Positions 1-16,767 of a DNA stretch of 54,403 nt are shown in pieces. The DNA is taken from the IMG/VR virus record IMGVR_UViG_3300013114_000124, positions 1 to 54,403 of that record; one strand, given 5' to 3'. Source of the DNA: a virus (Duplodnaviria; Caudoviricetes). The position numbers were made by a program, and so were the translations under genes. Position 1 is the first letter of the stretch; every line of letters begins with the position of its first letter. Under the pieces are notes generated by a model that saw nothing but the letters and a program-made list of their open reading frames with translations, searched no databases and was not told the DNA's origin.

Positions 1-61
1 CGTGGTCTACTCGGTTCTTGTTTCCGTTTGCGTCTGTCCAAACTTGATTAAAATATCCCAT
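1..61 (-). CDS. Hypothetical protein, 5' part only (MGYFNQVWTDANGNKNRVDH...), runs off the window
   Basis: ATG at 61-59 after an A-rich leader, about 30 nt downstream of the tRNA-like element; frame open to the window edge. Confidence 0.55.
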   Translation of the reverse strand, partial: MGYFNQVWTDANGNKNRVDH

Positions 62-90
62 TTTCTATTTGATTTTAAGGGTTAAACTTG

Positions 91-170
91 TACCCGCAGT
101 GTGATTCGAACACACGTCTAAACATCTGTGTATCATAGATGAATTGTCCTAACCTCTAGACGATGCGGGC
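91..170 (-). ncRNA. tRNA-like RNA 1 (80 nt, aberrant 25-nt anticodon region)
   Basis: GCCCGCA/TGCGGGT acceptor stem; D arm GTCTAGAGGTTAGGAC (tRNA-Glu-like); T arm GTGTG-TTCGAAT-CACAC; variable loop AGAC; anticodon region ATTCATCTATGATACACAGATGTTT; followed by CAA, not CCA. Confidence 0.8.
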
Positions 171-183
171 GCACTTTAATTAT

Positions 184-579
184 TTATATTAAGCTATTAC
201 GTAGCTTATCTATAAACGATTCAACCTCATTGGATTGTTTTTCTATTTCGTCACTCCATACCTTTGCTAGATGAATAGAAAGGATTTGATTTTCTTTTAA
301 AACACGTTCTTTTGTCCAAATATTTTCAGTACCAAACCAAACAGTGTCCCATCCTACTACCCACATGTCCTCCATGTCTGCAACCTCTTCCCATCCTATA
401 ATATCGTCTGAGTTTTTAGAGAATGTAAGATTAACATGAGCATGGTGTTCTAACTTCTTATTTATCTCACCATATCCTAAACCGAAGTACGGATGTCTTC
501 TTGGTAGTGCAACATATCCGTTTCCCCAACCTCCTAACCCTTGTGGAGTCCAAGTGTTTTCTTTTAAAAATGCTTTCAT
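184..579 (-). CDS. Conserved phage hypothetical protein (GWGNGYV-x-LP-xx-HP...LTFS...W-x-xGWD type)
   Basis: ORF track 184..615; ATG at 579 preferred because it has an AT-rich leader and avoids overlap with the upstream gene. Confidence 0.75.
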   Translation of the reverse strand: MKAFLKENTWTPQGLGGWGNGYVALPRRHPYFGLGYGEINKKLEHHAHVNLTFSKNSDDIIGWEEVADMEDMWVVGWDTVWFGTENIWTKERVLKENQILSIHLAKVWSDEIEKQSNEVESFIDKLRNSLI

Positions 580-602
580 GATATTTATATTAAATTTGTT
601 TA

Positions 603-845
603 TTATCTCAGCCATCTGTTCAATTTTAAAGCTATTTTATATCTTAAAGTATTGCCGTGTTTTGCACGATTGATAGTGAACGCTATCTTATAGATTTGAT
701 AACCCACGACCATAGCAGTTAAGCCTACAGTTTTAGCTACTACAAATGTTTGTAGGTTAAAGCCACTAGTTTGTTCTGCTAACACTAAGCATAGCCCTGC
801 CATTATAAGCAAAGCTGATATGCTAAAAGTTAATATGTGTCTCAT
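603..845 (-). CDS. Small membrane protein (two hydrophobic segments)
   Basis: ORF with two hydrophobic helices, packed tightly in the leftward unit. Confidence 0.7.
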   Translation of the reverse strand: MRHILTFSISALLIMAGLCLVLAEQTSGFNLQTFVVAKTVGLTAMVVGYQIYKIAFTINRAKHGNTLRYKIALKLNRWLR

Positions 846-847
846 GA

Positions 848-1000
848 TTATATTAGTTTTAATTGCCTTTGCATTTCTTTATAGCGCATAATATCCCACG
901 CTTTTTTATAGCCTATGTTATGTAATTGCATTAATTTATGCACCATTTTTTCTTCGATAGACTGCACTCGCATACGTCTACGTTTTGGTTTATTTGCCAT
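848..1000 (-). CDS. Small basic hypothetical protein, 50 aa (MANKPKRRRMRVQSIEEKMVHKLMQLHNIGYKKAWDIMRYKEMQRQLKLI)
   Basis: Translated by hand; A-rich leader; stop lies 2 nt before the next ATG; below the ORF-track size cutoff. Confidence 0.7.
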   Translation of the reverse strand: MANKPKRRRMRVQSIEEKMVHKLMQLHNIGYKKAWDIMRYKEMQRQLKLI

Positions 1001-1023
1001 TTTTATTTAATTTAATTGATTTG

Positions 1024-1103
1024 CACCCATAGACAGATTCGAACTGCCGTCTATACACCGCGACGATTTTAGTGTATTGTCCTAGCCACTAGACGATATG
1101 GGC
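1024..1103 (-). ncRNA. tRNA-like RNA 2 (80 nt, 7-bp anticodon stem with 11-nt loop)
   Basis: GCCCATA/TATGGGT acceptor; D arm GTCTAGTGGCTAGGAC; ATACACT-AAAATCGTCGC-GGTGTAT arm; AGAC; T arm GGCAG-TTCGAAT-CTGTC; followed by CAA. Confidence 0.8.
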
Positions 1104-1110
1104 ATGATAT

Positions 1111-1140
1111 AAAAAGCCCTACACTTTTACATGTAGGGCT
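1111..1140 (-). terminator. Intrinsic terminator after the Rho_N-domain gene
   Basis: Minus strand AGCCCTACA-TGTAAAAG-TGTAGGGCT followed by a T run. Confidence 0.75.
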
Positions 1141-1170
1141 GTGAGGGATATGGATTGAGGCAAAAAAGGT

Positions 1171-1593
1171 TTATGCCGTTACTAAAGCTATTAATTCAGC
1201 TTTTTTCATCTTTGAAAATTTGGTTTTACCTTGTTTTTTAGCTACCTCTTTAAGCTGCGCTACGTTCATCTTCTCAATTGGAGTTAATGTAGGTGCAGTA
1301 TCAGATAAATTCGCAGCGCTTTTAATAGCCTTGTGTATTGCTTGTAACACAAAGAATGGGCTGTAATTTCCTGCCTTTGAAACTCGCACGTTCTCCTTGA
1401 ATGTAGCGTAAACATCGTTGTTTTCTCTAATCTCACTCAATATTTGAATGTATTGCGTGCTAAGCTCTATTTCATCTCTAAAAAGCCACAGTATTTTTAC
1501 TGCACCTCCTAATGATTTGCACTCTCGTTTTAACGCCTTGTTAGTGTTTAAAACGTTCATTTTGTAAGCTGAAATTTTGTTTGATTTTGCCAT
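1171..1593 (-). CDS. Protein with a C-terminal Rho N-terminal-like (HeH/SAP-like) nucleic-acid-binding domain
   Basis: C-terminal IEKMNVAQLKEVAKKQGKTKFSKMKKAELIALV fits the L..M.V.QLK..AK..G....S.M.K.ELI pattern. Confidence 0.75.
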   Translation of the reverse strand: MAKSNKISAYKMNVLNTNKALKRECKSLGGAVKILWLFRDEIELSTQYIQILSEIRENNDVYATFKENVRVSKAGNYSPFFVLQAIHKAIKSAANLSDTAPTLTPIEKMNVAQLKEVAKKQGKTKFSKMKKAELIALVTA

Positions 1594-1637
1594 AATTTAA
1601 AAATTTAATTATTGTTTATTGATTTTAATTAATAGAT

Positions 1638-2337
1638 GCCCATGACAATATGCACTACGTGTCATGGGCTATTGATATGTACCACTTTTGTGGATTTCAC
1701 GCACTGGTTTACTGCGCTTATGTAAATATATGTATACGGATTTATTCCGTTGGTGTAACTTAATAAAATGTTGGGTTTTTTTGAGCCTTGAAATATACAC
1801 GTTAGTACCACAGCTATTTTATTGTACTTTTGATAACTCATTACCTAGAGATAAAACCCGTCTGAAAAATGTTGGCGTATCGCTGACTAATGTATATGCA
1901 GGTTAGTTTCATACCTTTCCTGCCAACCACTCGAATAATCACGCTAGGGTATTTTACTCCCATTGTCACGCAGTGGCAACCTTTTTACACCTTTACGGTG
2001 CCCTATATGCGTTCACGCTTCTCACGCCCAACTGATAGGTTTTAATTCGTTTCAGTAAGGATTCTACTCACTTTGCGCTATAATAGTAGTTTAACGTGAC
2101 TAAACTCGCCATACGATTCACCCAATGCGCTGCACTCCTAATGCTTGACCATACCTGTGCTTACAGGGCATTTCACCCTTATTATATGCTTACACCTTTG
2201 TGCTTAGCATACCTGCTGAATTGCAGTACACGTGTAGAATTGCCATTCTACCATGGCGCCATTGTGGCTCCAAAACTACTTCGCTACCTAGTAACAAAGT
2301 TTTAAAATCATGTTGAAATCGTTATTTCGTTTCAACA
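1638..2337 (-). ncRNA. Candidate long structured RNA or leader (~700 nt)
   Basis: No minus-strand ORF in the track; lies downstream of a TATGTTTG promoter; multiple hairpins, with terminal stems at 2311-2337 and 1638-1669. Confidence 0.5.
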
Positions 2338-2340
2338 GTA

Positions 2341-2372
2341 CAAACATACGTGGCATTTTTGACATAGTAAAA
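2341..2372 (-). promoter_or_regulatory. Bacteroidota sigma70-type promoter driving the leftward unit
   Basis: -7 box TATGTTTG (complement of 2341-2348); TTTTA about 20 nt upstream as a -33-like box. Confidence 0.7.
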
Positions 2373-3671
2373 TCCTGATAATCAAGCAGTTAGAAATTAA
2401 AGTGTTGATAATCAGACAGTTAGCTAAGTAGCTGAGTATCAAGGACTTAAGCAAAATGCCTTCTCGGTTAAAGCGCTGAGTATCAGGTAGTTAGCTTGTT
2501 TGTAATCGCCGTTTTTCCCAAACTGAAAACCTAGAGTAAAAAAAATTCAAAAAAAATTAAAAAGGGCTTATAAGTAACTGATATTCAAGTAGTTACAAGC
2601 AAAAAAAATTTTAAAATTAGCTTTAAAGTTAAAAGGTTGATAATCAAGCAGTTATAAAATCGAGTTTGTAAGTAGCTGAGTATCAATAAGTTATAAATTT
2701 AAAAAATTACGTTTGTAAGTATCTGAGAATCAAGTAGTTAGAGTAAGTAGTTGATAATGAGGCAGTTACGTTAAAGTGTTGATACTCAAGTAGTTAGGCT
2801 ATAAGCACGTAAAAAGTTAAAGTGCTGAAAATCAGGTAGTTAAGTTTTGGCTAGGTAGAAGTTAAGCTAAAGTACTGAGTATCAGCAGGTTATGTTTAAA
2901 TGGTGTTTGTAAGTAGCTGAGGTTCAGGCAATTACGATTCTGGCTCATAAGGTAGATTAAAGGTAAAACGTTGATAATGAGGCAGTTACGGCTAAGTAGC
3001 TGAGTATCAGGCGCTTACACCGGCACCGAGAATTAAATAGTCGTAACTATCTGAAAGTCAGGCAATTAGGCGTAACTATCTGAGAATCAGGCGCTTACAC
3101 TGGCACCGAGACTTAAATAGGCGTAACTATCTGAGTATCAGGCGCTTACACCGGCAAGCATATTTAAGTAGTTGTAACTATCTGAGAATCAGGTAATTAG
3201 ACGTAACTAATTGATAATGAGGCAGTTAGATTAACTCTTAAAGTATATGGAATTCGCGCGCGCGTAAAGAGCGTAACTATCTGAGAATGAAGCAGTTAGA
3301 CGTAACTAATTGATAATGAGGCAGTTACGGTAGAGTGGGTGAATTGAGTGGGTAAATAATTGATAATGAGGCAGTTACGGGTAAGTGTTTGATAGTCAAA
3401 TGATTAGAGTATAAGTAGTTAATAGTAATATATAAGCCTGAGTATCAAGCAGTTAGAATAAAAAACCTACAATACATAACTGTTAAGCGCCTGATTGTCA
3501 AGGTGTTAAGTTTGTTAAGCTAGTGTTTAACAGATTTTACAGATACATTAGACAAAAGATGTAACTATCTGAGTATCAGCGATTTAGACTAGTGTTTTAG
3601 GGCATTTCAATAAATAAGTTATTAAAAAAGTCAAAAAATTTGCTCGTAAAAGCCTGAAAATCAAGCCCGTA
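2368..3671. repeat. Array of about 28 palindromic 25-bp sites, consensus TAA-N5-TGA-N3-TCA-N5-TTA
   Basis: Counted by eye, e.g. TAAGTAGCTGAGTATCAAGGACTTA, TAACTATCTGAGAATCAGGCGCTTA, TAACTAATTGATAATGAGGCAGTTA; no ORFs in the region. Confidence 0.9.
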
Positions 3672-3788
3672 CGCCTAAAAAAATCGGTTTTCCTTTTCAA
3701 AAAATTCCCGTTCCATTTATGTAATACCTTTGTACCTAGTCCGTCCTCAATAATTTCAAATTGGCTTGCATATGTGGAAAATATTTCG

Positions 3789-3796
3789 TATATTGC
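3789..3796 (+). promoter_or_regulatory. -7 box of the first rightward promoter
   Basis: TATATTGC, with TTGC about 20 nt upstream. Confidence 0.6.
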
Positions 3797-3835
3797 AAAG
3801 ACAGGAAAGTTACAACTAATTAAAATTACCGTAAA

Positions 3836-3997
3836 ATGGGCGTTAAAACACCAAAAAATGAGAAAAATACAGAGGTTTCGGCATACCCGTGCTTTACTGA
3901 GGAAGCTATAACTATCACTACTTCCTTCAAAGTACCCGTACCCGTTACATACAGGGTTGCTACGCCTCGCAAAATAAATAAAAGTGACGACAACTAA
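3836..3997 (+). CDS. Hypothetical protein, 53 aa (MGVKTPKNEKNTEVSAYPCF...)
   Basis: Translated by hand; first ORF after the promoter at 3789. Confidence 0.4.
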   Translation: MGVKTPKNEKNTEVSAYPCFTEEAITITTSFKVPVPVTYRVATPRKINKSDDN

Positions 3998-4025
3998 GTT
4001 TCAAATAATTTAAAGCCAAATAAGG

Positions 4026-4373
4026 GTGAAAACACAAAAAGAGACAGAGCAGAAAATAAATCACGGCCTAAGTAATGAATTATACACATTGTTGTGCGCC
4101 GTTGATTTTAAGCCGAAGTCAATGGCTTTTTATAATAGTAGACAAAAACCTAATGGAAGTTGGGATAACTTTTTAGACCACGTTGACTGTATGCAAAAGT
4201 GCGTTAAAAACCATATGGGCGGAAACTATGGATTAGCTGACGAATATCTAATAGTAAAGCACGATGGGATATTTAATTTTCGATACTTTGGCGACTCTTC
4301 TGCTAAAATAGAAAAGATTGCAGAAGCAGATAAGGAAAGTGTTTTACAGTATTGTGTACTAAAATCGTTGTAA
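4026..4373 (+). CDS. Hypothetical protein
   Basis: ORF track; GTG start; fills the space in the rightward unit. Confidence 0.6.
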   Translation: MKTQKETEQKINHGLSNELYTLLCAVDFKPKSMAFYNSRQKPNGSWDNFLDHVDCMQKCVKNHMGGNYGLADEYLIVKHDGIFNFRYFGDSSAKIEKIAEADKESVLQYCVLKSL

Positions 4374-4397
4374 TTTAATTATAAAAACAAAGTAAAA

Positions 4398-4565
4398 ATG
4401 GAAGATTTAAAAGTATTAGCCACAGCGCTAAATGACGCTACTAAAAAAGGGGCCTTCAATCTTGATGAAGCAGTAGCGATTTCTCAATCAATTAACAATT
4501 TAGTTAAGGCGTTGAAAAATTGTGAAAAATGCAAGCCTTGCGACTCAAATTGTGAAAAAGAATAG
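4398..4565 (+). CDS. Small helical hypothetical protein, 55 aa, with Cys-rich tail (MEDLKVLATALNDATKKGAFNLDEAVAISQSINNLV...)
   Basis: Translated by hand; A-rich leader AAAAACAAAGTAAAAATG. Confidence 0.7.
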   Translation: MEDLKVLATALNDATKKGAFNLDEAVAISQSINNLVKALKNCEKCKPCDSNCEKE

Positions 4566-4697
4566 CACTTTGTCGGATAAATTGACATGTTTTTAAATAA
4601 AACTATGGTTTTTCCGTAAAATTATTGTATTTGTTTTATGTTTATATTTGTACTGTTGTATTAAAATGATTATAATATAGCGTAAGCAATCGAAACT

Positions 4698-4726
4698 AGC
4701 CTACCTCTTTCGGGGTAGGTTTTTTT
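4698..4726 (+). terminator. Intrinsic terminator
   Basis: CCTACCTC-TTTCG-GGGTAGG hairpin followed by a T run. Confidence 0.8.
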
Positions 4727-4787
4727 ATGCTCCAATTTTTCTTATATTGTTACCCTAAAACGTTTTAATAATTAAAATCATAGTATT

Positions 4788-5117
4788 ATGGCAAAGAATG
4801 GGCCCGTTAAAAAGGGGAAAAAGAAGACCCACGTAGTAAAGGGTAAAAAGAATACTACATTGGTCACGAGTAAGTCTGTATCGGACGCTAAGAGTAAATC
4901 AGGAGTTTTTAAAAGTAGGCCTGCGTATAAAGGTAAGGAATCTAAATCAGGAGTCACAACTCACGACGGTACTTTTCATAAAGTGACTGGCCCTGTATCA
5001 AGAAGAGCTGCTAGAAAAGTCTTAGCTAAAGACAAAGCTCTATACGGAGCAAGCTCTGCGGCTCATAGTGCAAGAACTAATAGGTTCGCGACTGCAAAAA
5101 GAAGAAAAAGTAAATAA
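4788..5117 (+). CDS. Highly basic Lys/Arg-rich protein (histone-like, possibly DNA-condensing)
   Basis: Very K/R-rich; own promoter box (TATATTGT at 4743) and terminator. Confidence 0.7.
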   Translation: MAKNGPVKKGKKKTHVVKGKKNTTLVTSKSVSDAKSKSGVFKSRPAYKGKESKSGVTTHDGTFHKVTGPVSRRAARKVLAKDKALYGASSAAHSARTNRFATAKRRKSK

Positions 5118-5150
5118 TATAGAAAGGAGACTACAAATATATCTTAGAAG

Positions 5151-5177
5151 AGGCCTACTTAATAGTAGGTCTTTTTT
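5151..5177 (+). terminator. Intrinsic terminator
   Basis: AGGCCTACT-TAAT-AGTAGGTCT followed by a T run. Confidence 0.75.
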
Positions 5178-5860
5178 ATTACGCCCCCTCTAACAAAAGC
5201 CTACCTTAGAAAAAAGCCGCGCGCGCCGCTAATAAACTGATAGAGGGATTACAATTTTTTTATAGGTACAAATAAAGCTCTCCAAGGTAAAGCGTACTTA
5301 TTTATATAAAGTTACAATTAAATATAGGGGGGCATAGATATGTAGCTTTAAAAAACGCAAGGAGTTTACCTGCTCCCGCCGAGACTGAGTTTAAGCTTAC
5401 AGTTACAGTACGCTTTATCATGCTCCGAAGCCGCAAGGCATCACTTGCACTCTCACTGGCGTTCGTTCACAAGTGAATCAAACTAAAATTTTTGTTTTTT
5501 GTTAGCGAGGAATCGTAACTTTGTGGGTGCAGTACCTAGAGGGAGGCCGAACCTAAAAGGGTACTTATTAGTAGCGCTTAAAAAAGAAATACTATAATTT
5601 TCGCGTCCCTTAAAAAAACATTAGATTTAAAAATTGTGACGGCTAAGTCACTGATTAGCTAAAAACACTCGTAAGACCGTTATTCACACGGACGCATTAT
5701 TAATCAATTGAAATCTAAAAAGAATGTGAGACGTGTCAAAGGAGATTTAAGTTGCCTGAACCAAGTGCCTTACGATTATGACACAAGTTTAGAAACTTTT
5801 TACGTAGATTTTCGACTACTGATACTGCAATATACAAAAAATATTTCATATATCCAAATC

Positions 5861-5896
5861 GCAACAAAAAATACCTAATCGTCGCGGTATACTTGC
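5861..5896 (-). ncRNA. Candidate mini hairpin RNA (ATACC-GCGACGATTA-GGTAT then U-tract)
   Basis: Directly downstream of a minus-strand TATATTTG box (5901-5908); loop complementary to the loop of tRNA-like RNA 2. Confidence 0.45.
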
Positions 5897-6028
5897 ACTA
5901 CAAATATAAGGATTATTTTAACACTGTATTTTTACGCCCAAAGCCTTATTGCAACTGAGTGTTAATAACTTTTCTTATGCTCGCATAGTACTAAAAAAAG
6001 CGTAAAGAAAAAAGTCTTATATTGCACC

Positions 6029-6592
6029 ATGAAAAGATTTGCTTACGTTTTTTCAATAGTGTTTATTTTATTTGTTAATTTAAAGGGGAGCTCGGCTTAC
6101 ATATCCAAATCACCAATTACTCATTCAGCCTCTCCCCTTTATTTTTTAGACACTTCTGACGCGTCCTCTGTAAAAGTTGACAAACCCTTAATGCCTTACT
6201 ACGTATCATTCCTAAATTATATAGAAGATAACGACATAAAGTCTGAATATTTAGCTAGGAAGCTAGATGATATAGTGCTTTACCCTTTAGAGGACGGGTT
6301 ATACGGCCTTTACTCACCTGAAAATAGACAAATAGTGATAAACTCAAAGTATTTATACAGCGCTACTATATTAAGGAAGGTAATGTTCCACGAATTAGGA
6401 CATGTATACGGACTTAATCACTCAGAAAGCGGTATAATGCAAACTTATCAGACACCCTTAGATATATACGCATCTTACTTTACAGGAGAAGAGTACGACC
6501 CCTCCATATGGGAACTGCACAAAGCTAAAATGGCTCAAGACATAAAAAAGTCTTTTGTTTACGTTATTAGCAGAGAAAATTTGCTAGATTAA
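6029..6592 (+). CDS. Secreted or membrane-anchored zinc metallopeptidase (metzincin, matrixin-like)
   Basis: N-terminal signal peptide; HELGHVYGLNH fits HExxHxxGxxH; Met-turn SGIM. Confidence 0.8.
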   Translation: MKRFAYVFSIVFILFVNLKGSSAYISKSPITHSASPLYFLDTSDASSVKVDKPLMPYYVSFLNYIEDNDIKSEYLARKLDDIVLYPLEDGLYGLYSPENRQIVINSKYLYSATILRKVMFHELGHVYGLNHSESGIMQTYQTPLDIYASYFTGEEYDPSIWELHKAKMAQDIKKSFVYVISRENLLD

Positions 6593-6615
6593 AAAATAAT
6601 TTGTATATTAGAGGT

Positions 6616-6978
6616 ATGAAACAGACAATATCATACCTAGAGACAATAAAGTTACCTCACAACGGAGAACTTACCAAAACGCTTACTAAAATCGAAGGAC
6701 TTATTCACTCAGAGGAAGATTTATCCAAAGAGGGTATAGGAATCTCTAAAATCTACACCATAGAGAATGAAGACGGTATTTTCAGGCTTACTATTTATTC
6801 TGATGGCTACGGAACCTTAGCTAATGTTAAATCAGGCCCGGAGCAACAGAAAATGTGTTTAGCAGAAAGAATTTTGAAGCTCGACAAAGATATTTTCCAA
6901 ATGAAGCTTAAAATTAGAGACTTAATCTTCGAGAGAGATTTTTACAAAGAGGAAGCAATGAAAAAGCAGCCCAAGTAG
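6616..6978 (+). CDS. Hypothetical protein with C-terminal coiled coil
   Basis: ORF track 6601..6978; ATG at 6616 preferred, right after a TATATTAG box. Confidence 0.7.
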   Translation: MKQTISYLETIKLPHNGELTKTLTKIEGLIHSEEDLSKEGIGISKIYTIENEDGIFRLTIYSDGYGTLANVKSGPEQQKMCLAERILKLDKDIFQMKLKIRDLIFERDFYKEEAMKKQPK

Positions 6979-6986
6979 GCTGCTTT
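6963..6986. terminator. Hairpin terminator between convergent genes
   Basis: AAAGCAGCC-CAAGTA-GGCTGCTTT. Confidence 0.65.
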
Positions 6987-7010
6987 GTTGTAAAGTTACT
7001 AAATGAATTA

Positions 7011-8750
7011 TTATCTTTCCTTAACTGACCAAGTTGAATCTATTTCTAAAGTACAGTTATCATCATCTAACAGGTTTGCTATCTGCCAAAATACAAAATC
7101 GTTCTGATTTAGTATAACAGAAGTCTGTCCTGACCAAATACCTACATCTCTACCTCCTTGAAAGTTGTTAACTGTCCTTACTTGAGAATAAACTGTAGTT
7201 GTAACAGCATTAGCATCTGTCTTCATTAAGAATAGTTCGTAATTATCGTTATTCTTACCGTCTATCAATAAATCCCAATTAACTGTAAACTCTCTAGGGT
7301 TAATACCTATATGTCTTAATCTACCCGCAGAAGGGCTGTCGAAATGTTGTAAGTCTATCGTAGAAAAGTTTCCGTTTAAGTCCACTTGCACATTCTGAGC
7401 ACTTATAACAGTCTGAACCTCAGCGTCGTTGTTTATAGCTCCGCCAACAAAGGTATTAGCTATCCCTATATTGTTATCCCAATCACAAGGTAAATCAGCA
7501 GGGGATAAGTTAGGGAATATGTTACTGTCGTTTGCATCAAAAGCACCATCCCTACTTAATATGGCCCCTTTAACCTGAATAGTTGAAGGATTTGGGAAGT
7601 TGGACACTTCAAAATCACAAAGTGGCGCTAACGTAGGTAAATCACAGTTAATATCAGTTAAAAACCTTGAGTTCATTTGGAATGCTACACCTTCTTTAAA
7701 TAGTGGAGCAGTCATTGTGCCCGCTAAACTTCTAACAATACTTGTAGTTATTCTGTAACCACCTCTCCATAATCCGTGAAGCGTTAATGAAGGTGACCCT
7801 CCAAATCTACCTGTACCACTTTCTAACCCTTGCCTGTAATCATATATGTCCCCTAAACTGGTACAGTTTATATAATTTATCCTAGCAAACTCAAAAGCAT
7901 TGAATCCTGTACTATCATATAGCTCGTACACTTTAGAACCTGCTCCTGTAACTGATACATAGTAGTCAGCACCTAACAAGTTACCACTACCTATAGCTAT
8001 AGATTCAGAAACAAACATTGTGTAGTTATCTTCAGATGATGTAAGACCACTAATATCAAAAGATAGGCCTAATATAGTCATACCTGTAGGAGGCACAGTT
8101 ATCTGTGTACTACCCATATCAATTATACCGTCTAAGAAATATTGCTTAGTTGAATCTATTGTACCACCTAAAGTAGTGTCTTTATTAGCTTGAGTAACTA
8201 ATATTCTGTTATCTAAACCTCCCGCACTAAGTAAAAGGTTATTAATTTCATTAGCTATTGCGTTTCTATCTGACACCCACACAGAGCCATCCCAAACATA
8301 CCAACCTTCAGGGTAGTAATTGCCTCCTAGTGTACCAGGTAGCCAAGCAGTACCTTGAGAGTTTTCTACGTAAGCTATATCTCCTATCTCACTACCTGCA
8401 ATCAGAGCTGAGTAATTATCAGCTTGCTGCTTTATAGGTATACCTCCACCATCAGCGGCAAATACTATAGGGTTTAAGTATAATATTAAAGAGTCTAAAT
8501 CACTAAACGTAGTTACACCGTCAGAGCTATACTCAGAAATAGGTCTCTCCCTAGTTATTACAGTTTGATTTTCATTTACACTACGTATCCCTACAGTTAC
8601 TTCGCTCTTTATTACATTATCAGACGAATCTAATAAAATAGTTCCGTATGTTATAGTGTAGTCTCCTCTTCTATATTCTAGGCCGTCGACATTAAACAGA
8701 GTGTCTGCATCTACGGTACTAGCTTTTACAGTTATAAATTTCTTTGCCAT
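7011..8750 (-). CDS. Putative virion-associated fibre or adhesin-like protein; N-terminal domain shared with 9666..10538
   Basis: Beta-rich G/S/T/N/D composition; GWYVWDGSVW motif; own promoter box TATCTTTG (8780-8787, minus). Confidence 0.6.
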   Translation of the reverse strand: MAKKFITVKASTVDADTLFNVDGLEYRRGDYTITYGTILLDSSDNVIKSEVTVGIRSVNENQTVITRERPISEYSSDGVTTFSDLDSLILYLNPIVFAADGGGIPIKQQADNYSALIAGSEIGDIAYVENSQGTAWLPGTLGGNYYPEGWYVWDGSVWVSDRNAIANEINNLLLSAGGLDNRILVTQANKDTTLGGTIDSTKQYFLDGIIDMGSTQITVPPTGMTILGLSFDISGLTSSEDNYTMFVSESIAIGSGNLLGADYYVSVTGAGSKVYELYDSTGFNAFEFARINYINCTSLGDIYDYRQGLESGTGRFGGSPSLTLHGLWRGGYRITTSIVRSLAGTMTAPLFKEGVAFQMNSRFLTDINCDLPTLAPLCDFEVSNFPNPSTIQVKGAILSRDGAFDANDSNIFPNLSPADLPCDWDNNIGIANTFVGGAINNDAEVQTVISAQNVQVDLNGNFSTIDLQHFDSPSAGRLRHIGINPREFTVNWDLLIDGKNNDNYELFLMKTDANAVTTTVYSQVRTVNNFQGGRDVGIWSGQTSVILNQNDFVFWQIANLLDDDNCTLEIDSTWSVKER

Positions 8751-8899
8751 TATTATCTTGTTTAGTGTGTGTTATCTAGCAAAGATACTAAAAAAATACG
8801 AGGTAAATAAAAACTATTTTACTGTAAAGTTTGTTAAACGTTTGGAATTGTCAAATATATTTCGTATGTTTGTAAAACACAAATAAAAAACACACTATT

Positions 8900-9604
8900 A
8901 TGCAGAACACAAATTACGTTATTTACTACAGAGCTAGTACAGAGAAACAAAGAGATGGTTTAGGATTAGACGCGCAAAAGGCAGCGATAAGCAAATTCTT
9001 AAATAACTACGGAGGCACAATCGTAGATATAGTAGAAGAGATTGTGTCAGGTGGAGCAGACGTAAGAGAAGGTTTTAACCAAGCTTTAAAAGTAGCTAAA
9101 GAAACAAGCTCTACTTTATTAGTACACAGAATAGATAGATTATCTAGGTCAGGATTCATGACCATAGCTTTATTAGAGCAAGAAGGAGTTAACTTCATAG
9201 AAGCTGACGCGCCTAATGACTCTAGTTTCTCTAAAAACATTAAGTTCTTAGTAGCTAAAGAGGAGAAAGAGAAAATCCAAGCTAGGGTTAAAGGAGCTCT
9301 ATCAGAAATTAAAACTAAGATAGGTCAGAATGGATATCACATCTCTAAAGCAGGTAATAAGATTACATCTTTAGGCTCTCCTCAAAACTTATCAGAAGTG
9401 TCTAGACAAAAGTCAATAGTGTCAAGAAGAAACAAAGCTCTTAACAATATTAATAATAAGAAGGCTTACTCTGTAGTAGAGTTAATGGAAGGTAAATCTC
9501 TAAGAGCTATAGCAACATACCTTAACAATAACGGATTCAAAACATCTAGAGGTAAGGACTTCAGCGCCTCTCAAGTATCTAACCTACGTAAGCTTTACTC
9601 TTAA
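8900..9604 (+). CDS. Serine recombinase (resolvase/invertase family) with C-terminal DNA-binding region
   Basis: YYRASTEKQ catalytic Ser motif; GLDAQ; RIDRLSR; C-terminal SLRAIATYLNNNGFKTSRGKDF. Confidence 0.92.
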   Translation: MQNTNYVIYYRASTEKQRDGLGLDAQKAAISKFLNNYGGTIVDIVEEIVSGGADVREGFNQALKVAKETSSTLLVHRIDRLSRSGFMTIALLEQEGVNFIEADAPNDSSFSKNIKFLVAKEEKEKIQARVKGALSEIKTKIGQNGYHISKAGNKITSLGSPQNLSEVSRQKSIVSRRNKALNNINNKKAYSVVELMEGKSLRAIATYLNNNGFKTSRGKDFSASQVSNLRKLYS

Positions 9605-9642
9605 GGGGTACTTGCACATATAAAATAAAAGTTGTATCTTTA
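9603..9642 (+). repeat. Direct repeat copy 1, containing a promoter
   Basis: AAGGGGTACTTGCACATATAAAATAAAAG matches 11192-11220 at 27/29 positions; -7-like box TATCTTTA at 9635. Confidence 0.8.
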
Positions 9643-9665
9643 CCTCTAATATAAAAATATAAAAT

Positions 9666-10538
9666 ATGGCAGTATTAAAAGCAGGAGCAGCAAGCTCCAC
9701 ATTCAATTTAGATGGTAACGAGTATTCTAAAGGTTTATACGAAACTATCTACAGTAACGTAAGTATCTTACCTGACGGAGAGTCAGATGAAAAGGTGCTT
9801 CAAGTAGGTCTACGAAACATAAATACAGGCGAGACTATCCAAGAGCCTATAATGATTAGGGCTTGGAAAAATGGTAGTAATGTAGCTTACACTACACTAG
9901 ACGCCTTGATATCAGATTTAAACTCTTTGGCAGGTGTAGGTTCTTCGGGGCCTTTAGAAGTACCGACATCCTACCCAACAACAGACGCAGCTAAGGCCGG
10001 CAAGACCTTTATATATAAAGGTACGCAGTGGGTGTATCTAAATCAAGAAATGATTAACGACAGAAATTGGCAAAACATAGCTGCAGTAAGTGTAGGATTC
10101 CCTGCTCCACTTGAAGATAGTAGAACAAACTATAAAGTTGTCAGACCAACTGCATCAGCTTGGAACGTATCGGGAGTAGCAGATTTCGAATTGGCCAATT
10201 ATAACTACGTAAATGGTACAGGTGGTGACGTAGAATTTGACGCTATAGGTTACTCCTCTGTACATTTAATGCAATCATTGTCCGTCAATATAGGTGCAGG
10301 TAATACTTTAGTAAAACTTAGAAACGTAGGTCTATGTGCTAATTTAGAAGACGTAGGGACAAGTTCCGCCATGTACTTATCGTCCAAAGGTATGAGTGCA
10401 GCCACTATAGACGACATATTTACTCAGTTACCTGCAACAACAAAAACAGCGACAATTGACGTAAGGTCTAACCCAGGTTCAGCAACTTGCGACGCCTCAA
10501 TAGCAACAGCGAAAGGGTACACAGTAGTGACAGCTTAA
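9666..10538 (+). CDS. Putative structural protein; N-terminal domain paralogous to 7011..8750
   Basis: FNLDGNEYSKGLY...VGLRNIN...LDALISDLN aligns with the paralogue; C-terminal NPGSATCDASIATAKGYTV cap resembles ends of surface-repeat proteins. Confidence 0.6.
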   Translation: MAVLKAGAASSTFNLDGNEYSKGLYETIYSNVSILPDGESDEKVLQVGLRNINTGETIQEPIMIRAWKNGSNVAYTTLDALISDLNSLAGVGSSGPLEVPTSYPTTDAAKAGKTFIYKGTQWVYLNQEMINDRNWQNIAAVSVGFPAPLEDSRTNYKVVRPTASAWNVSGVADFELANYNYVNGTGGDVEFDAIGYSSVHLMQSLSVNIGAGNTLVKLRNVGLCANLEDVGTSSAMYLSSKGMSAATIDDIFTQLPATTKTATIDVRSNPGSATCDASIATAKGYTVVTA

Positions 10539-10540
10539 TT

Positions 10541-11188
10541 ATGAATTTATACTCAGTAGCAATAGGGAAGAAGTACGAAATTGAAGCTAAGAGACTTCAA
10601 GACAGTATGAAACCACTAGATGTAACAGTACTTACAGAAAGAGACGTAGAGAGAAAAAGCGAAGACAATTTGATTAATGGGTTATACCATAAGTCAAACT
10701 TCGCTAATTACATAGATGGTGTAGAAGGCCCTATAGTCTTTCAAGACGCAGATATGTTCACTCTATCAGATAACCCTTTTAAAGATTTTAAAGTTAAAGA
10801 AGACACGGAGCTTGCTTACGTACCTTACGAGGGTACGTGGCACCTCCCTGACGAAATCAGACAGAGCGCTTTCAATTACCACGGGCATAAGATAAATAGT
10901 GGTTTCATGTACTTTAAAGACTTAGAGGTAGCTCAAAAGATTTGTAACCAATGGCGATACGAATATCTTGAAAGAGAGAAGTTGTACGATGTTTTTAAAG
11001 GTACAAGTAAGTATGAGTACGACGAGTGGGCTTTAATGATAGCTTTACAGAAACTAGATAGTATAAAGGTAGAGTTGTTAGACAGCAAGTGGAACGATTG
11101 GTCTTTAAACTTAGGTGACGAGATAGTCGATAATACCTCTATATTCCTACAGAGTCACGGGCACTTAGACATATTAAAAAGCGAGTAG
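10541..11188 (+). CDS. Glycosyltransferase, GT-A fold (GT8-like)
   Basis: DAD (DxD) motif, INSGFMYF, DEWAL, KWN; ATG at 10541 follows the upstream stop. Confidence 0.75.
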   Translation: MNLYSVAIGKKYEIEAKRLQDSMKPLDVTVLTERDVERKSEDNLINGLYHKSNFANYIDGVEGPIVFQDADMFTLSDNPFKDFKVKEDTELAYVPYEGTWHLPDEIRQSAFNYHGHKINSGFMYFKDLEVAQKICNQWRYEYLEREKLYDVFKGTSKYEYDEWALMIALQKLDSIKVELLDSKWNDWSLNLGDEIVDNTSIFLQSHGHLDILKSE

Positions 11189-11191
11189 CTA

Positions 11192-11231
11192 AAGGGGTGC
11201 TTGCATATATAAAATAAAAGACGTATATTTA
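11192..11231 (+). repeat. Direct repeat copy 2, containing a promoter
   Basis: AAGGGGTGCTTGCATATATAAAATAAAAG; -7-like box TATATTTA at 11224. Confidence 0.8.
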
Positions 11232-11261
11232 TAAAATAATTAATTTTTAAACAACAATTTT

Positions 11262-11801
11262 ATGAGAAAAGGAATATCAGCATTCTCTTATCTACCGCCA
11301 CTAGAAATCTTTTTAGATGATTTCTCGCCTTGTAGCACAGAGTCTATTATAACAGCTTTAGAGCACTTAGCTCAAGAACAAGCTAAAGGATTAGTTGACG
11401 GAACTTACAGCGAAACGCTTAGCATGAACACACCGTATACCACTTGTCAGTGGGGATATATAGTTCAGTTAGGTAACGTTGCAGGAGACGTGGCTGTAGT
11501 TAGTGTAGGAGAGAACACACAAGATACTGACGCAATAGGCAGAGCAGGATTAACAACTAGAAGAAAGGTCGACGTAGGTACTACAGTAACAGGACAGGAG
11601 TACACTATCAGGTCTCTAATAGCAGCTATAAACTTCATAGAGAAGTTAGAAGACGAGGTTGCTGAGACAGGTTCTGACACAAGTACAGACGGGACTTACA
11701 CAGACGTTTTATTATCAGGGCCAACTCCTTATAGACAATACAAGTGGACTATTACAAAGTTAGGTATAGTTTACACAATAACACCAACAACAGAAAGCTA
11801 A
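11262..11801 (+). CDS. Hypothetical protein with internal duplication
   Basis: Two copies of a S(I/L)I.A...GTY...TPY....W pattern. Confidence 0.75.
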   Translation: MRKGISAFSYLPPLEIFLDDFSPCSTESIITALEHLAQEQAKGLVDGTYSETLSMNTPYTTCQWGYIVQLGNVAGDVAVVSVGENTQDTDAIGRAGLTTRRKVDVGTTVTGQEYTIRSLIAAINFIEKLEDEVAETGSDTSTDGTYTDVLLSGPTPYRQYKWTITKLGIVYTITPTTES

Positions 11802-11805
11802 GATT

Positions 11806-12345
11806 ATGAGTATAAAGAAAACAAACGCATTACAAGGCTCACAAGCCTTTAAGCAAAGATGGCAAATCGGAGATTATCACCCAATAGAGGCTTACGAAGC
11901 TTTAGCGCATTTTGTGCAGGTTTGGTCAGACGAAGGGAAAGTAGGAGAAGACCAAGATGAAGTTCTTCACCCTGCAGGTAAGAGACCAGGTACAGTAGTA
12001 TCTATTTCTACATCTTACGACGGAGCTACGCAGAGACAGGATTTTGTAATTGAGAACGGCCCTGCACCGGCAGGTTATAGTTTTGAACTTAACTCTAAAA
12101 ACAGAGATATTAAGATTGTTCTTGGCACAGGTACATATTCTTCAGACGCAATAACGGCTTTTCTTAAAGCTGTAAAAAAGATGGAGAAACAAGGGAAAGT
12201 TAAGAATAACTATTTTATTGGCGCAGGCGCAGATATACAAATAGAGTGTAAAGGTAAGAACCCTTTTAAAACGTATACTTGGGAGTATACTAAAGGCGGA
12301 ACTAACGGAGAAGATTACACAGCTATCTATATCGGAGAAAACTAA
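11806..12345 (+). CDS. Hypothetical protein, probable distant paralogue of 11262..11801
   Basis: Same length (179 aa); AITAFLKAVKKME...NPFKTYTWEYTK resembles the neighbour's C-terminal half. Confidence 0.75.
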   Translation: MSIKKTNALQGSQAFKQRWQIGDYHPIEAYEALAHFVQVWSDEGKVGEDQDEVLHPAGKRPGTVVSISTSYDGATQRQDFVIENGPAPAGYSFELNSKNRDIKIVLGTGTYSSDAITAFLKAVKKMEKQGKVKNNYFIGAGADIQIECKGKNPFKTYTWEYTKGGTNGEDYTAIYIGEN

Positions 12346-15657: not shown

Positions 15658-16767
15658 ATGGCGCAAGTAGAATGCAAAACGGACTTACTAGTAGAAGGAA
15701 AAGTTACAGCTGATTACGCTGTTTTTCCTGCTAACACAACACTACCTTCAACTTCTGCTGAAGCACTATATGCAACTTCAGGTAGTTTATATGTACAATC
15801 AGGTCAACACGTATATAATAGAGCTGATGAAGATGATAGTGGTAGTGGTAATGTGTATTCTTACAGTGGAGGTACAATACTAGGAGCTTTTTATGGGCCT
15901 AATGCAGCTAACTCAATTGGTGGCGTAGGATTAGAAGTGTACGGATATACTAAAACTGATAGTATAATATTAGATAACTTTGAAGAAGCTCAGTGTACTG
16001 CAGCAGGGCAAATCGTCTTTGATATTAATGACACAAATGCTCTACAATCAACAGGTAACTACAACACTAACCCTATAGGCTTATATGTGAACGATGGAGC
16101 TGCTTCAAATAATATAAAAAGAATATGGACTACCGATAACTTTACTAGCGTTGTTGATTTAACAACAGCTCAAACAATAACAGCTAACAAGACTTTTAGT
16201 GGGGCTGATTTACTTTTAAAGGATGACGACAATATTACACTTGGTACAGGTAAAGACACAAACATATTCCACGGTACTCAAGACTCTGATTTAGGCACTC
16301 ACTTTATGACCTCAAGTGGAGGATTCTATTTTAGAAAAGAAGGTACAGTAGCAGAGTTGCTTCATATAGATATATCTGACGGTGACATTAAAGCAACAAA
16401 CGATTTATACGCAAACGATTATTATGGTAATGATGATGTAACTAAAACAGATATACCTGAAAATGCAACTGTTATAAATTCAGTATCTTCAACAGGTAAT
16501 TATGCTGTTAAAGCAGGCAGACTTATTATATCAGATACTTACTTTGTAACCAATACAGGTCAAACAGGTTTTAAAACATTAGCAACACTACCTGTGGGTT
16601 CTAGACCTGATGCACCTAGACAAATAAGAGGTTATGAGGTTGAAAGTGGTGGGGTAGCTGATAACATAGTTTTAATATTATTAGATACAGATGGAACCTT
16701 AAAGACTACAGTAAAATCTGAAGCTTCATATTATTTTGACTATGAGTGTACATTAACACAACCGTAG
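15658..16767 (+). CDS. Tail fibre or receptor-binding protein
   Basis: TAQTITANKTF fibre motif; C-terminal LATLPVGSRP head-domain motif. Confidence 0.7.
   Translation: MAQVECKTDLLVEGKVTADYAVFPANTTLPSTSAEALYATSGSLYVQSGQHVYNRADEDDSGSGNVYSYSGGTILGAFYGPNAANSIGGVGLEVYGYTKTDSIILDNFEEAQCTAAGQIVFDINDTNALQSTGNYNTNPIGLYVNDGAASNNIKRIWTTDNFTSVVDLTTAQTITANKTFSGADLLLKDDDNITLGTGKDTNIFHGTQDSDLGTHFMTSSGGFYFRKEGTVAELLHIDISDGDIKATNDLYANDYYGNDDVTKTDIPENATVINSVSSTGNYAVKAGRLIISDTYFVTNTGQTGFKTLATLPVGSRPDAPRQIRGYEVESGGVADNIVLILLDTDGTLKTTVKSEASYYFDYECTLTQP

What the first reader, a model, noticed from the sequence alone, without database searches (positions are those of the whole stretch)
2368..3671. 1.3-kb array of about 28 dyad-symmetric sites between divergent transcription units
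Seen: the consensus TAA-N5-TGA-N3-TCA-N5-TTA is kept while the N positions vary, which is typical of dimeric protein-binding sites. Many sites are paired at about 27-30 bp spacing, and a higher-order ~51-bp unit (CAGGCGCTTACACyGGCA...TAAATAG.CGTAACTATCTGA) recurs at about 3000-3200. The first site overlaps the -33 region of the leftward promoter. Inference: a nucleoprotein platform such as an operator array, iteron origin, centromere-like site, genome terminus/packaging region, or a sponge for a host DNA-binding protein. I recall similar motifs in Bacteroidota chromosomes but cannot verify that here. Candidate phage binders are the Rho_N/HeH protein (1171-1593), the wHTH protein (12437) and the serine recombinase.
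Basis: partly seen in the sequence, partly recalled or inferred. Interest (0 to 1): 0.8.

Follow-up and report, generated by a model that had tools for sequence, protein, structure and literature searches.

The report
Phage array of IHF-like binding sites
A marine flavobacterial phage packs 28 copies of a palindromic, IHF-like DNA-bending-protein site into the 1.3-kb gap between its two divergent promoters, and the same site turns up in other phages, plasmids, integrating elements and chromosomes of Bacteroidota and Fibrobacter.

Summary
There are 28 sites TAA-N5-TGA-N3-TCA-N5-TTA (20 exact, 8 with one mismatch). All lie in 2368-3671 and none elsewhere in the 54.4-kb window. They fill the gap between a leftward and a rightward Bacteroidetes-type -7 box.

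The variable positions show no compensatory pairing, so these look like protein sites and not hairpins. Each half-site matches the classical IHF consensus WATCARNNNNTTR: 24 of 28 sites have at least one full match. The whole site reads as a symmetric IHF site, TTGAT-W-ATCAA, flanked by TTA.

The same motif occurs in 32 of 120 fetched viral loci. Distant relatives of this Callevirus-like podophage carry one cluster of 4-8 sites per genome, at a divergent junction. It also lies next to integrases and Rep_3 initiators, and in chromosomes of Bacteroidota and Fibrobacter.

No phage gene tracks the array. The window encodes no HU/IHF or ParB.

Best reading (about 0.45): sites for a host IHF/HU-type bending protein that build a nucleoprotein hub at the phage control region or origin. 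A sponge role is not excluded. One 99-bp unit carrying 2 sites is not reproduced by independent contigs.

The parts
2368..3671 (+). Array of 28 imperfectly dyad-symmetric 25-bp sites with consensus gTAAnnnnYTGA-kwa-TCARGyAGTTA. All have the same polarity: the right-half N5 (RGYAG) is conserved and the left-half N5 is heterogeneous.
2341..2348 (-). Inferred -7 box (TATGTTTG) of the leftward promoter. Site 1 lies over its -33 zone.
   Evidence: The TAnnTTTG consensus is recalled from work on Bacteroidetes promoters. No transcript data.
3725..3732 (+). Inferred -7 box (TACCTTTG) of the rightward promoter, 54 bp after the last site. The first rightward ORF starts at 3836.
2520..2760 (.). The most A+T-rich stretch of the array (G+C 0.24, A-runs at 2538-2563 and 2598-2616). 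A candidate unwinding element if the region is an origin.
   Evidence: The function is inference only.
2980..3230 (+). Higher-order 51-bp and 80-bp tandem units. Each holds one or two sites plus a CACCGGCA...TAAATAG linker. They indicate recent duplication.
3197..3295 (+). 99-bp unit (sites 3204 and 3274 plus a unique GAATTCGCGCGCGCG stretch). It is skipped by contigs of all three runs that hold the rest; the joint is bounded by a 32-bp exact repeat.

Best explanation
The array is a dense cluster of binding sites for a sequence-specific, dimeric DNA-bending protein that the host supplies, not the phage. [quoted passage not shown]

Each 25-bp site is a symmetric version of the classical IHF site. 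Two inverted WATCAR-N4-TTR elements share the central W. This puts the two kinkable steps 9 bp apart and a TTA clamp element 10-12 bp to either side of the dyad.

Bound side by side, often only 27-30 or about 50 bp apart, 26-28 such U-turn bends would fold the whole 1.3-kb gap between the two divergent promoters into a compact nucleoprotein body. I infer that this body organises the phage control region. It could set the activity of the two outward promoters, and possibly help open the A+T-rich segment as a replication origin. This would work as single IHF sites do in phage Mu's divergent operator region, upstream of lambda pL and in iteron plasmid origins.

Shown: the sites, their statistics, their symmetry, their lack of pairing covariation, their spread in other replicons and host chromosomes, and the absence of a co-varying phage gene.

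Inferred: the identity of the binder, the bending, and the function.
For: 1. Protein site, not structure. N5 complementarity is 43 of 140 cells, against a shuffle mean of 47.5. Only 2 of 26 site sets (L092, L014) exceed their shuffles. No Rfam hit.

2. Match to the IHF consensus. WATCARNNNNTTR is matched by the right half in 15 of 28 sites, by the left half in 12 of 28, and by at least one half in 24 of 28. Density is 20.3 per kb in the array against 0.21 per kb outside. Passages read in 10.1101/382655 give the consensus WATCARnnnnTTR and kinks 9 bp apart. Passages read in PMC1874591 give ApA steps at the proline intercalation sites separated by nine base pairs, with WATCAA starting near the centre of the site. 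TTGAT-W-ATCAA fits this.

3. The consensus emerges where the search did not ask for it. In 64 bacterial sites found with the centre left as NNN, the middle base is W in 62 of 64. ATCAA is formed on at least one side in 55 of 64 and on both sides in 34 of 64. In viral loci, 137 of 158 exact sites have at least one full IHF half.

4. Host-lineage distribution. A 20-base pattern scanned over one genome per GTDB species gave 64 loci. By record title they are 44 Bacteroidota, 13 Fibrobacter(aceae), 1 Melioribacteraceae, 4 PVC and 2 unnamed; none is from other phyla (assignment of families to phyla is mine). In 81 Flavobacteriaceae genomes there are 185 sites against 11 for the reversed control, and 62 of 81 genomes have at least one (the sums are mine). 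One Emticicia genome has 107 against 0. One Fibrobacter genome has 6 against 0.

5. Contexts typical of IHF use.
- Sites lie 80-133 bp upstream of an integrase-like ORF in 6 loci, and 175-570 bp upstream of a Rep_3-like ORF in 6 loci. These are BLASTP clusters; 2 members of each were scanned with Pfam.
- One site lies upstream of an integrase with the Arm-DNA-bind_5 domain.
- Four sites lie upstream of a D5_N primase.
- One conserved site lies between divergent genes in 4 Fibrobacter loci.
- BHFa, an IHF/HU-family host factor for CTnDOT integration, is described in passages of PMC6606824 and PMC5499826.

6. No phage-encoded partner. No PF00216, PF18291 or PF02195 in the window. No PF00216 match over the cut-off in 5 motif-rich contigs. 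No protein family is specific to array-bearing phages. The one candidate family is a PDDEXK nuclease.

7. Conserved place. There is one cluster per genome at a divergent junction in G091, G092, G093 and G094.
Against: - No binding was tested. The link to HU/IHF rests on likeness to the E. coli consensus.
- No good site lies near any of 24 HU/IHF-family genes in 5 host genomes (at best 2 mismatches). The autoregulation signal that could have tied motif to protein is therefore absent.
- The site carries extra specificity that E. coli IHF does not need (AGTTAC / GTAACT at the ends). Another dimeric protein could read this.
- The array is strand-asymmetric (GC skew +0.2 to +0.7), which a purely symmetric site does not predict.
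- Sites only 25-30 bp apart would overlap the roughly 35-bp wrap of E. coli IHF.
- The closest cultured relatives have no array. phi38:1 has one site in 1-40000, and elemoE has none by matrix in 1-50000. The array is therefore not essential to this phage type.
- Verrucomicrobiota genomes also show a few sites (10 in 61 genomes against 0 control), so the lineage limit is not sharp.
- The window is about 75% complete, so a phage-encoded binder could lie in the missing part.
Confidence: 0.45

Rival explanations
1. The sites bind a host protein of another family. This could be a global regulator, or one of the expanded Bacteroidota HU-HIG proteins proposed to intercept invading DNA. In that case the likeness to the IHF consensus is partial convergence.
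For: - The distribution in host chromosomes and mobile elements fits any host-lineage protein.
- There is extra conserved sequence beyond the E. coli IHF consensus (GTAACT ... AGTTAC).
- No sites lie near classical HU genes.
- Passages of PMC5499826 describe lineage-specific HU-HIG expansions with a proposed role against mobile elements.
Against: - Four conserved blocks centred about 11, 3, 3 and 11 bp from the dyad are unusual for helix-turn-helix dimers. They match the IHF layout element by element.
- The contexts are those where IHF-type factors act: integrase arms, Rep_3 and primase upstream regions.
Confidence: 0.2
2. The array acts mainly as a sponge. By offering about ten times as many consensus sites as a whole host chromosome, multiplied by phage copy number, it titrates the host protein away from its own targets, from competing mobile elements, or from a defence role.
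For: - There are 20 exact sites in 1.3 kb, against a mean of 2.3 exact sites per Flavobacteriaceae genome (185 in 81 genomes).
- The array is far larger than in relatives, which have 4-8 clustered sites.
- It is growing by recent duplication.
- It is diverged in a roughly 93%-identical relative from another study. That is fast turnover, as expected of a dosage device.
Against: - Relatives keep only 4-8 sites at the same fixed place between divergent operons. That points to a local architectural role as the ancestral one.
- IHF/HU-type proteins are usually very abundant (established knowledge for E. coli), so tens of sites per genome may not titrate them.
- No phenotype data exist.
Confidence: 0.15
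3. The sites are operators or iterons for a phage-encoded regulator or replication initiator that lies in the missing quarter of the genome, or that is too diverged to be recognised.
For: - The window is about 75% complete, and the missing part is the leftward replication block.
- Small ORFs next to the array have no recognisable family.
- The array sits where phages keep their control regions.
Against: - The same motif occurs in phage types that share almost no genes. G093 shares one family with the window. The 130-155-kb phage fragments carry paired sites.
- It also occurs in plasmid, integrase and chromosomal contexts.
- The near-complete array-bearing genomes G091 (95%) and G092 (100%) share no family with the window that phi38:1 and elemoE lack.
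- The wHTH homolog is found in 1 of 4 genomes.
Confidence: 0.12
4. The sites are recombination targets. They could be crossover sites for the phage serine recombinase, or attC-like cassette borders.
For: - A small serine recombinase is encoded 5 kb away.
- In an Emticicia chromosome the motif sits at the centre of each repeat of a cassette-like array.
- A 99-bp unit is missing in independent contigs.
Against: - phi38:1 has the recombinase but no array.
- The centre of the site is an odd 3-bp spacer, and the conserved blocks are not arranged like hix, gix or res sites (recalled).
- The 99-bp skip is bounded by 32 bp of identity. That fits homologous slippage or assembler behaviour.
- In the cassette repeats the motif lies between other inverted repeats, as an accessory site would.
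Confidence: 0.04
5. The repeats act as nucleic-acid structures. These could be hairpin promoters for an injected RNA polymerase (as in N4), RNA hairpins of a non-coding transcript, or terminators.
For: - Each site has a TGA-N3-TCA core that could form a 3-nt loop.
- The phage encodes a 3083-aa virion protein.
- The phi38:1 transcriptome paper reports six putative non-coding RNAs in intergenic regions (passage of PMC5335546; its supplements are closed).
Against: - There is no pairing covariation, and only 31% of N5 cells are complementary.
- The two inferred promoters point away from the array.
- No genes follow the sites.
- No Rfam match.
- No RNA polymerase family was found in the 3083-aa protein by Pfam or PHROGs.
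Confidence: 0.03

Closest known systems
IHF sites of E. coli phages and plasmids (lambda attP H', lambda pL upstream sites, the phage Mu operator region between divergent Pe and Pc, pSC101 and R6K origins)
   Same: - The same 13-bp consensus WATCAR-N4-TTR.
- Kinkable steps 9 bp apart.
- Use by phages, integrating elements and iteron plasmids.
- Placement between divergent phage promoters, as in Mu (recalled).
   Different: - Here the site is dyad-symmetric, with two consensus halves. There is no single half plus an A-tract.
- It carries extra end specificity (GTAACT).
- It occurs in Bacteroidota and Fibrobacter, not Proteobacteria.
- It is present 28 times in 1.3 kb. Known cases have one to a few sites.
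Bacteroides host factor A (BHFa), the IHF/HU-family factor for CTnDOT integration
   Same: - A host-lineage IHF/HU protein used by mobile elements of Bacteroidota (passages in PMC6606824 and PMC5499826).
- The motif lies upstream of integrases, one of them with the Arm-DNA-bind_5 domain.
   Different: - The BHFa binding sequences could not be read, because the primary paper is not held.
- Identity between the motif and BHFa sites is therefore untested.
Multimeric nucleoprotein complexes of phage histone-like proteins (phi29 p6 at the genome ends; SPO1 TF1)
   Same: Many closely spaced sites for a DNA-bending protein in a phage control or origin region, thought to wrap the DNA into a compact body that governs early promoters and replication (recalled).
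   Different: - Those proteins are phage-encoded, and p6 reads bendability, not a defined sequence.
- Here no HU-like gene is found in the phage, and the sites have a strict consensus.
Centromere and iteron arrays (F sopC, P1 and N15 parS, plasmid iterons)
   Same: Tandem arrays of sites with internal dyad symmetry, built by duplication.
   Different: - No ParB in the window.
- Spacing is irregular, 27-102 bp.
- The motif is shared by unrelated replicons and host chromosomes, so it is not replicon-specific.
Repeated intergenic palindromes of phage genomes (for example the 17-bp palindromes of Cluster O mycobacteriophages; recalled)
   Same: Dyad-symmetric motifs repeated in non-coding DNA and taken as regulator sites. 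The paired sites in nearly every intergenic gap of the 130-155-kb phage fragments look like this.
   Different: Those motifs are private to one phage cluster. This one crosses phage types, plasmids and host chromosomes.

Membership tests
IHF-type binding site | 13-bp consensus WATCAR-N4-TTR | tested here: met
   24 of 28 sites have at least one half that matches in full (right half 15, left half 12, both 3, neither 4). Density is 20.3 per kb inside against 0.21 per kb outside. The consensus is as printed in 10.1101/382655.
IHF-type binding site | Two kinkable (ApA/TpT) steps 9 bp apart around the centre, with WATCAA starting near the centre | tested here: inconclusive
   The geometry fits: Y-TGA-N3-TCA-R places the steps 9 bp apart. 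However, the step is TT in only 9 of 28 left halves and AA in 12 of 28 right halves; the rest are CT and AG.
IHF-type binding site | Asymmetric site: the consensus in one half and often an A-tract in the other | tested here: not met
   The site is dyad-symmetric with conserved TAA/TTA and TGA/TCA on both sides. This would fit a homodimer, which is an inference.
IHF-type binding site | Bound and bent by an HU/IHF-family protein | not testable with these tools
No motif lies near the HU/IHF genes of 5 host genomes.
Iteron replication origin | Direct repeats specific to one replicon, next to its own initiator gene | tested here: not met
   The motif is shared by unrelated phages, plasmids and chromosomes. 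There is no initiator gene next to the array. The window is incomplete.
Partition centromere (parS or sopC type) | A ParB-family binder encoded by the same element | tested here: not met
   No PF02195 match in six frames at E <= 1. The record is about 75% complete.
CRISPR array | Identical repeats at a regular period with unique spacers of near-constant length | tested here: not met
   The repeats are 65-89% alike. Start-to-start gaps range from 27 to 102 bp.
Structured RNA or hairpin-promoter array | Base pairs kept by compensatory change | tested here: not met
   43 of 140 N5 cells are complementary, against a shuffle mean of 47.5. No Rfam match at E <= 1.

The most novel reading that the evidence does not exclude
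Bacteroidota and Fibrobacter have a so far undescribed recognition code for a homodimeric IHF-like protein: a palindromic double IHF site. Phages, plasmids, integrating elements and cassette arrays of these lineages all exploit it. This phage has amplified the site into a 28-copy decoy that captures the host protein, possibly one that otherwise marks or silences incoming DNA. That would be the first phage-borne DNA sponge for a nucleoid-associated protein.
Probability: 0.12. Interest if true: 0.85.

Novelty: new variant of a known kind. Interest (0 to 1): 0.62.

Why it matters
Sequence-specific DNA bending by IHF is a textbook mechanism, but it is worked out almost only in Proteobacteria. In Bacteroidota one host factor (BHFa) is known, and I found no recognition motif for it: my two sequence-string searches found no relevant paper.

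If the motif is the target of such a protein, three things follow:
- It gives a searchable signature for control regions, origins and attachment sites of mobile elements across Bacteroidota and Fibrobacter.
- It offers a natural 28-site substrate for studying how many adjacent U-turn bends pack DNA.
- It makes a clear question testable: is a phage using the host's architectural protein to build its control region, or draining it?

The finding is not tied to a cultured phage, which limits immediate experiments. The motif does occur in cultured hosts, for example Emticicia, Salinimicrobium and Pedobacter.

Tried and rejected
- DNA similarity of the window (1-12000, near mode) and of the array (2300-3750, distant mode) to the phage collection gave no match.
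- The search for related loci with the two flanking proteins (1171-1593 and 4026-4373) found no relative in viral contigs.
- The class-specific 18-mer scan of viral contigs gave 3 loci. They have no further sites and no homology to the window, so they are chance hits.
- The window has no tRNA genes.
- The sigma-70 promoter scan was at the chance level, 7 found against 9.7 expected.
- Folding the whole array as RNA is uninformative, because of the repeats and because no shuffles are run above 1000 nt.
- A global periodicity of site positions was not above gap-shuffled controls: best R 0.48, against a shuffled 95th percentile of 0.63.
- The gap phase preference (7.9 bp modulo 10.5, Rayleigh p about 0.002) is inflated by duplicated units. 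I do not build on it.
- The Atlas look-ups of two small ORFs beside the array gave nothing usable.
- Autoregulation test: 24 HU/IHF-family loci of 5 host genomes hold no site better than 2 mismatches.
- Literature searches for the motif strings returned primers and unrelated items.
- Searches on Cellulophaga phage promoters and on Pervagoviridae gave no description of such an array.
- The supplements of PMC5335546, which list the non-coding RNAs of phi38:1, are closed and may bear on whether the equivalent gap is transcribed.
- The Ringwald and Gardner 2015 paper on BHFa is not held.
- Parts of the stretch without contig cover in run X4 are not evidence of absence.
- Verrucomicrobiota, meant as a negative control, still gave 10 sites in 61 genomes against 0 control. 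I therefore claim enrichment in Bacteroidota and Fibrobacter, not exclusivity.
Full report
**What is there**

The stretch 2368-3671 holds 28 copies of TAA-N5-TGA-N3-TCA-N5-TTA. Twenty are exact and eight have one mismatch.
- With up to two mismatches the window has 37 matches, against 7.4 +/- 2.9 in shuffles. The nine matches outside the stretch all have two mismatches.
- The reversed pattern has no match.
- The position counts give the fuller consensus gTAAnnnnYTGA-k-w-a-TCA-R-G-y-A-G-TTA.
- The right half is better kept than the left, and nearly all sites point the same way.
- The top strand is G-rich throughout, with GC skew +0.2 to +0.7.
- Start-to-start gaps run from 27 to 102 bp. There are two favoured classes: 27-30 bp (8 of 27) and 42-54 bp (12 of 27).
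- Units of 51 and 80 bp around 2980-3230 show recent duplication.
- No ORF of 40 codons or more lies between 2454 and 3774.

**Setting**

The window is an IMG/VR virus record, linear and about 75% complete.
- Its portal is 64% identical to those of Cellulophaga phages phi38:1, phi40:1 and Calle (Pervagoviridae, Callevirus). It is about 35% identical to those of Flavobacterium elemo phages and others.
- Gene content agrees: large terminase, portal, virion proteins, a 3083-aa virion protein, GroEL, exonucleases and a small serine recombinase.
- As in phi38:1, a leftward replication block and a rightward block diverge from one long non-coding gap.
- A Bacteroidetes-type -7 box (TAnnTTTG; recalled consensus) lies on the minus strand at 2348-2341. 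Site 1 then covers the -33 zone.
- Another -7 box lies on the plus strand at 3725-3732, 54 bp after site 28.
- The array therefore fills the space between the two outward promoters. Both promoters are inferred, not shown.

**Is it an artefact?**

- Contigs of three public runs (one study, three samples) hold 90-95% of the sampled words.
- When laid on the window, they reproduce 1939-3196 and 3296-4500 with few differences.
- All three jump from 3196 to 3296 over a 32-bp exact repeat. The 99-bp unit with sites 3204 and 3274 is thus not confirmed. It may be a minority form or an assembler effect.
- A run of another study holds a relative whose flanks are about 93% alike but whose array is only patchily alike. 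The array evolves faster than its flanks.

**Protein site or structure?**

If the dyad symmetry served base pairing, the variable N5 positions of the two halves should co-vary.
- They do not. In the window 43 of 140 cells are complementary, against 47.5 expected from shuffling halves among sites.
- Among 26 site sets only two (L092, L014) exceed their shuffles.
- Rfam gives no match.
- The conserved triplets with free spacers are the signature of a protein that reads a few positions.

**The motif is not private to this phage**

- 32 of these hold five or more sites, and 65 hold two or fewer.

Two arrangements recur.
- In fragments of large phages the sites come as pairs 41-50 bp apart in almost every intergenic gap. 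CheckV puts these fragments at 17-37% of about 130-155 kb. The consensus there is cgTAAGTCGTTGAtagTCAACGACTTAcg.
- In relatives of the window, which share terminase, portal and GroEL at about 30-36% identity, the sites form one cluster in a long non-coding gap between divergent gene blocks.

Whole-record searches confirm one cluster per genome:
- 7 of 9 sites at 3366-3814 in G092 (65.9 kb, 100% complete).
- 5 of 6 sites at 15681-16012 in G091 (95% complete).
- 8 of 8 sites at 74037-74814 in G093.
- 4 of 4 sites at 10165-11120 in G094.

G093 shares only one protein family with the window, yet has the same layout.

The cultured relatives lack it. phi38:1 has an equivalent 1.3-kb gap with other repeats and a single site elsewhere. 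elemoE has none by matrix. A matrix trained on 267 sites of other loci picks exactly the window's 28 sites.

**Host genomes**

A 20-base palindromic version was scanned over one genome per species of GTDB and gave 64 loci. By title these are 44 Bacteroidota, 13 Fibrobacter or Fibrobacteraceae, one Melioribacteraceae, four PVC-group and two unnamed. None is from the phyla that dominate the collection. Most loci hold a single site.

Recurrent neighbours:
- Tyrosine integrases with the site 80-133 bp upstream of the start (6 loci).
- Rep_3 initiators with the site 175-570 bp upstream (6 loci).
- A pair of divergent Fibrobacter genes with the site about 88 bp from both (4 loci) (Pfam on two members of each cluster).
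- A further integrase with the Arm-DNA-bind_5 domain.
- Four sites upstream of a D5_N primase.

Counts in whole genomes, against the reversed-pattern control:
- 81 Flavobacteriaceae genomes: 185 exact sites against 11, with 62 of 81 genomes having at least one.
- One Emticicia genome: 107 against 0. Part of these sit at the centre of the repeats of a cassette-like gene array.
- One Fibrobacter genome: 6 against 0.
- 61 Verrucomicrobiota genomes: 10 against 0. The lineage limit is a matter of degree.

**What the motif is like**

- Read from the centre outwards, each half is (W)ATCA(R)-N4-TTA. This is the IHF consensus WATCARNNNNTTR.
- 24 of 28 sites match it in full on at least one side. The density is about 100 times that of the rest of the window.
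- The papers I read in passages say that IHF kinks DNA at two steps 9 bp apart. They also say that WATCAR lies between the kinks and TTR in the flank (10.1101/382655).
- They say that the kinks are at ApA steps separated by nine base pairs, with WATCAA starting near the centre of the site (PMC1874591).
- TTGAT-W-ATCAA flanked by TTA at +/-10-12 is exactly a two-fold symmetric version of that layout.
- The AT that completes ATCA, and the central W, were not part of my genome-scan pattern, yet they emerge: W in 62 of 64 sites, and ATCAA on at least one side in 55 of 64.
- A symmetric site suggests a homodimer.
- Bacteroides has an IHF/HU-family host factor, BHFa, needed for CTnDOT integration, and the phylum has large HU expansions (passages of PMC6606824 and PMC5499826). 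I could not read the BHFa footprints.

**Who binds?**

- The window encodes no HU/IHF, HU-HIG or ParB domain in six frames.
- Five motif-rich large-phage contigs have no HU/IHF match over the cut-off.
- An all-against-all comparison covered five array-bearing genomes and two array-less relatives. It finds no family specific to the former that includes the window. The one family shared by three others is a PDDEXK nuclease.
- Together with the chromosomal sites, this points to a host protein.
- The test that could have tied the motif to HU/IHF genes, sites in their own promoters, was negative.

**How it most likely works**

I commit to the following, at about 0.45. A host homodimeric IHF/HU-type protein binds each site and bends it sharply. 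With 26-28 sites the whole inter-promoter gap is folded into a compact body. This body sets the geometry and supercoiling of the two outward promoters. It may also help melt the A+T-rich segment at 2520-2760 as an origin.

The ancestral state is a handful of sites, as in the relatives. This phage has amplified them by tandem duplication.

A sponge role is the most interesting alternative. It fits the numbers: 20 exact sites against about 2.3 per host chromosome. It is untested.

**Unexplained**

- The strand asymmetry of the array.
- The direct-repeat character of some half-sites.
- The very close 25-30-bp spacing.
- The absence of the array in cultured relatives (note 102).

**Verdict**

The named phage binders are not supported. 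This is a new variant of a known kind: IHF-type architectural sites, here in a symmetric, lineage-specific form and in unprecedented number.

Noticed in passing
L221 and L222 (G002:C1:2640001-2680000, Emticicia): More than 20 short same-strand ORFs are each followed by a ~110-bp repeat. The repeat has the motif at its centre, flanked by GCAAGCAAG / CTTGCTTGC inverted repeats. This looks like an integron or attC-like cassette array. I made no search for an integron integrase.
   Followed up: partly
L115, L097, L118, L046, L052, L016, L092, L108: Fragments of large phages (CheckV 17-37% complete for five of them) carry pairs of the motif 41-50 bp apart in almost every intergenic gap, upstream of small genes.
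   Followed up: partly
L127, L131, L170, L174 (Fibrobacter): The same site is conserved between a ~1300-aa ORF of no known family and an HD_5-domain ORF, 55-170 bp upstream of their starts, in four Fibrobacter loci.
   Followed up: no
window 4006-4392: In a ~93%-identical relative from another study, this stretch (ORF 4026-4373) is replaced by 22 other letters (joint 4005 to 4393).
   Followed up: no
window 39101-48352: A 3083-aa ORF matches a PHROG virion structural protein over residues 130-859, with a weak LPD38 hit. It holds a 15-bp tandem repeat (4.8 copies) at 41900-41971.
   Followed up: no
L005 33250-34560 (phi38:1): The equivalent non-coding gap of the cultured relative lacks the motif but has its own repeats. 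These are 28- and 44-nt repeats 238 bp apart and a 32-nt tandem pair at 34067-34130. Several annotated small ORFs there may be spurious.
   Followed up: partly
window 3240-3262: There is a GAATTCGCGCGCGCG stretch (alternating GC, Z-DNA-prone) inside the 99-bp unit that independent contigs skip.
   Followed up: no
genomes G044 and G069: Some chromosomal sites of Flavobacteriaceae are identical copies at several places or lie at contig ends. They probably belong to repeated mobile elements such as insertion sequences.
   Followed up: no
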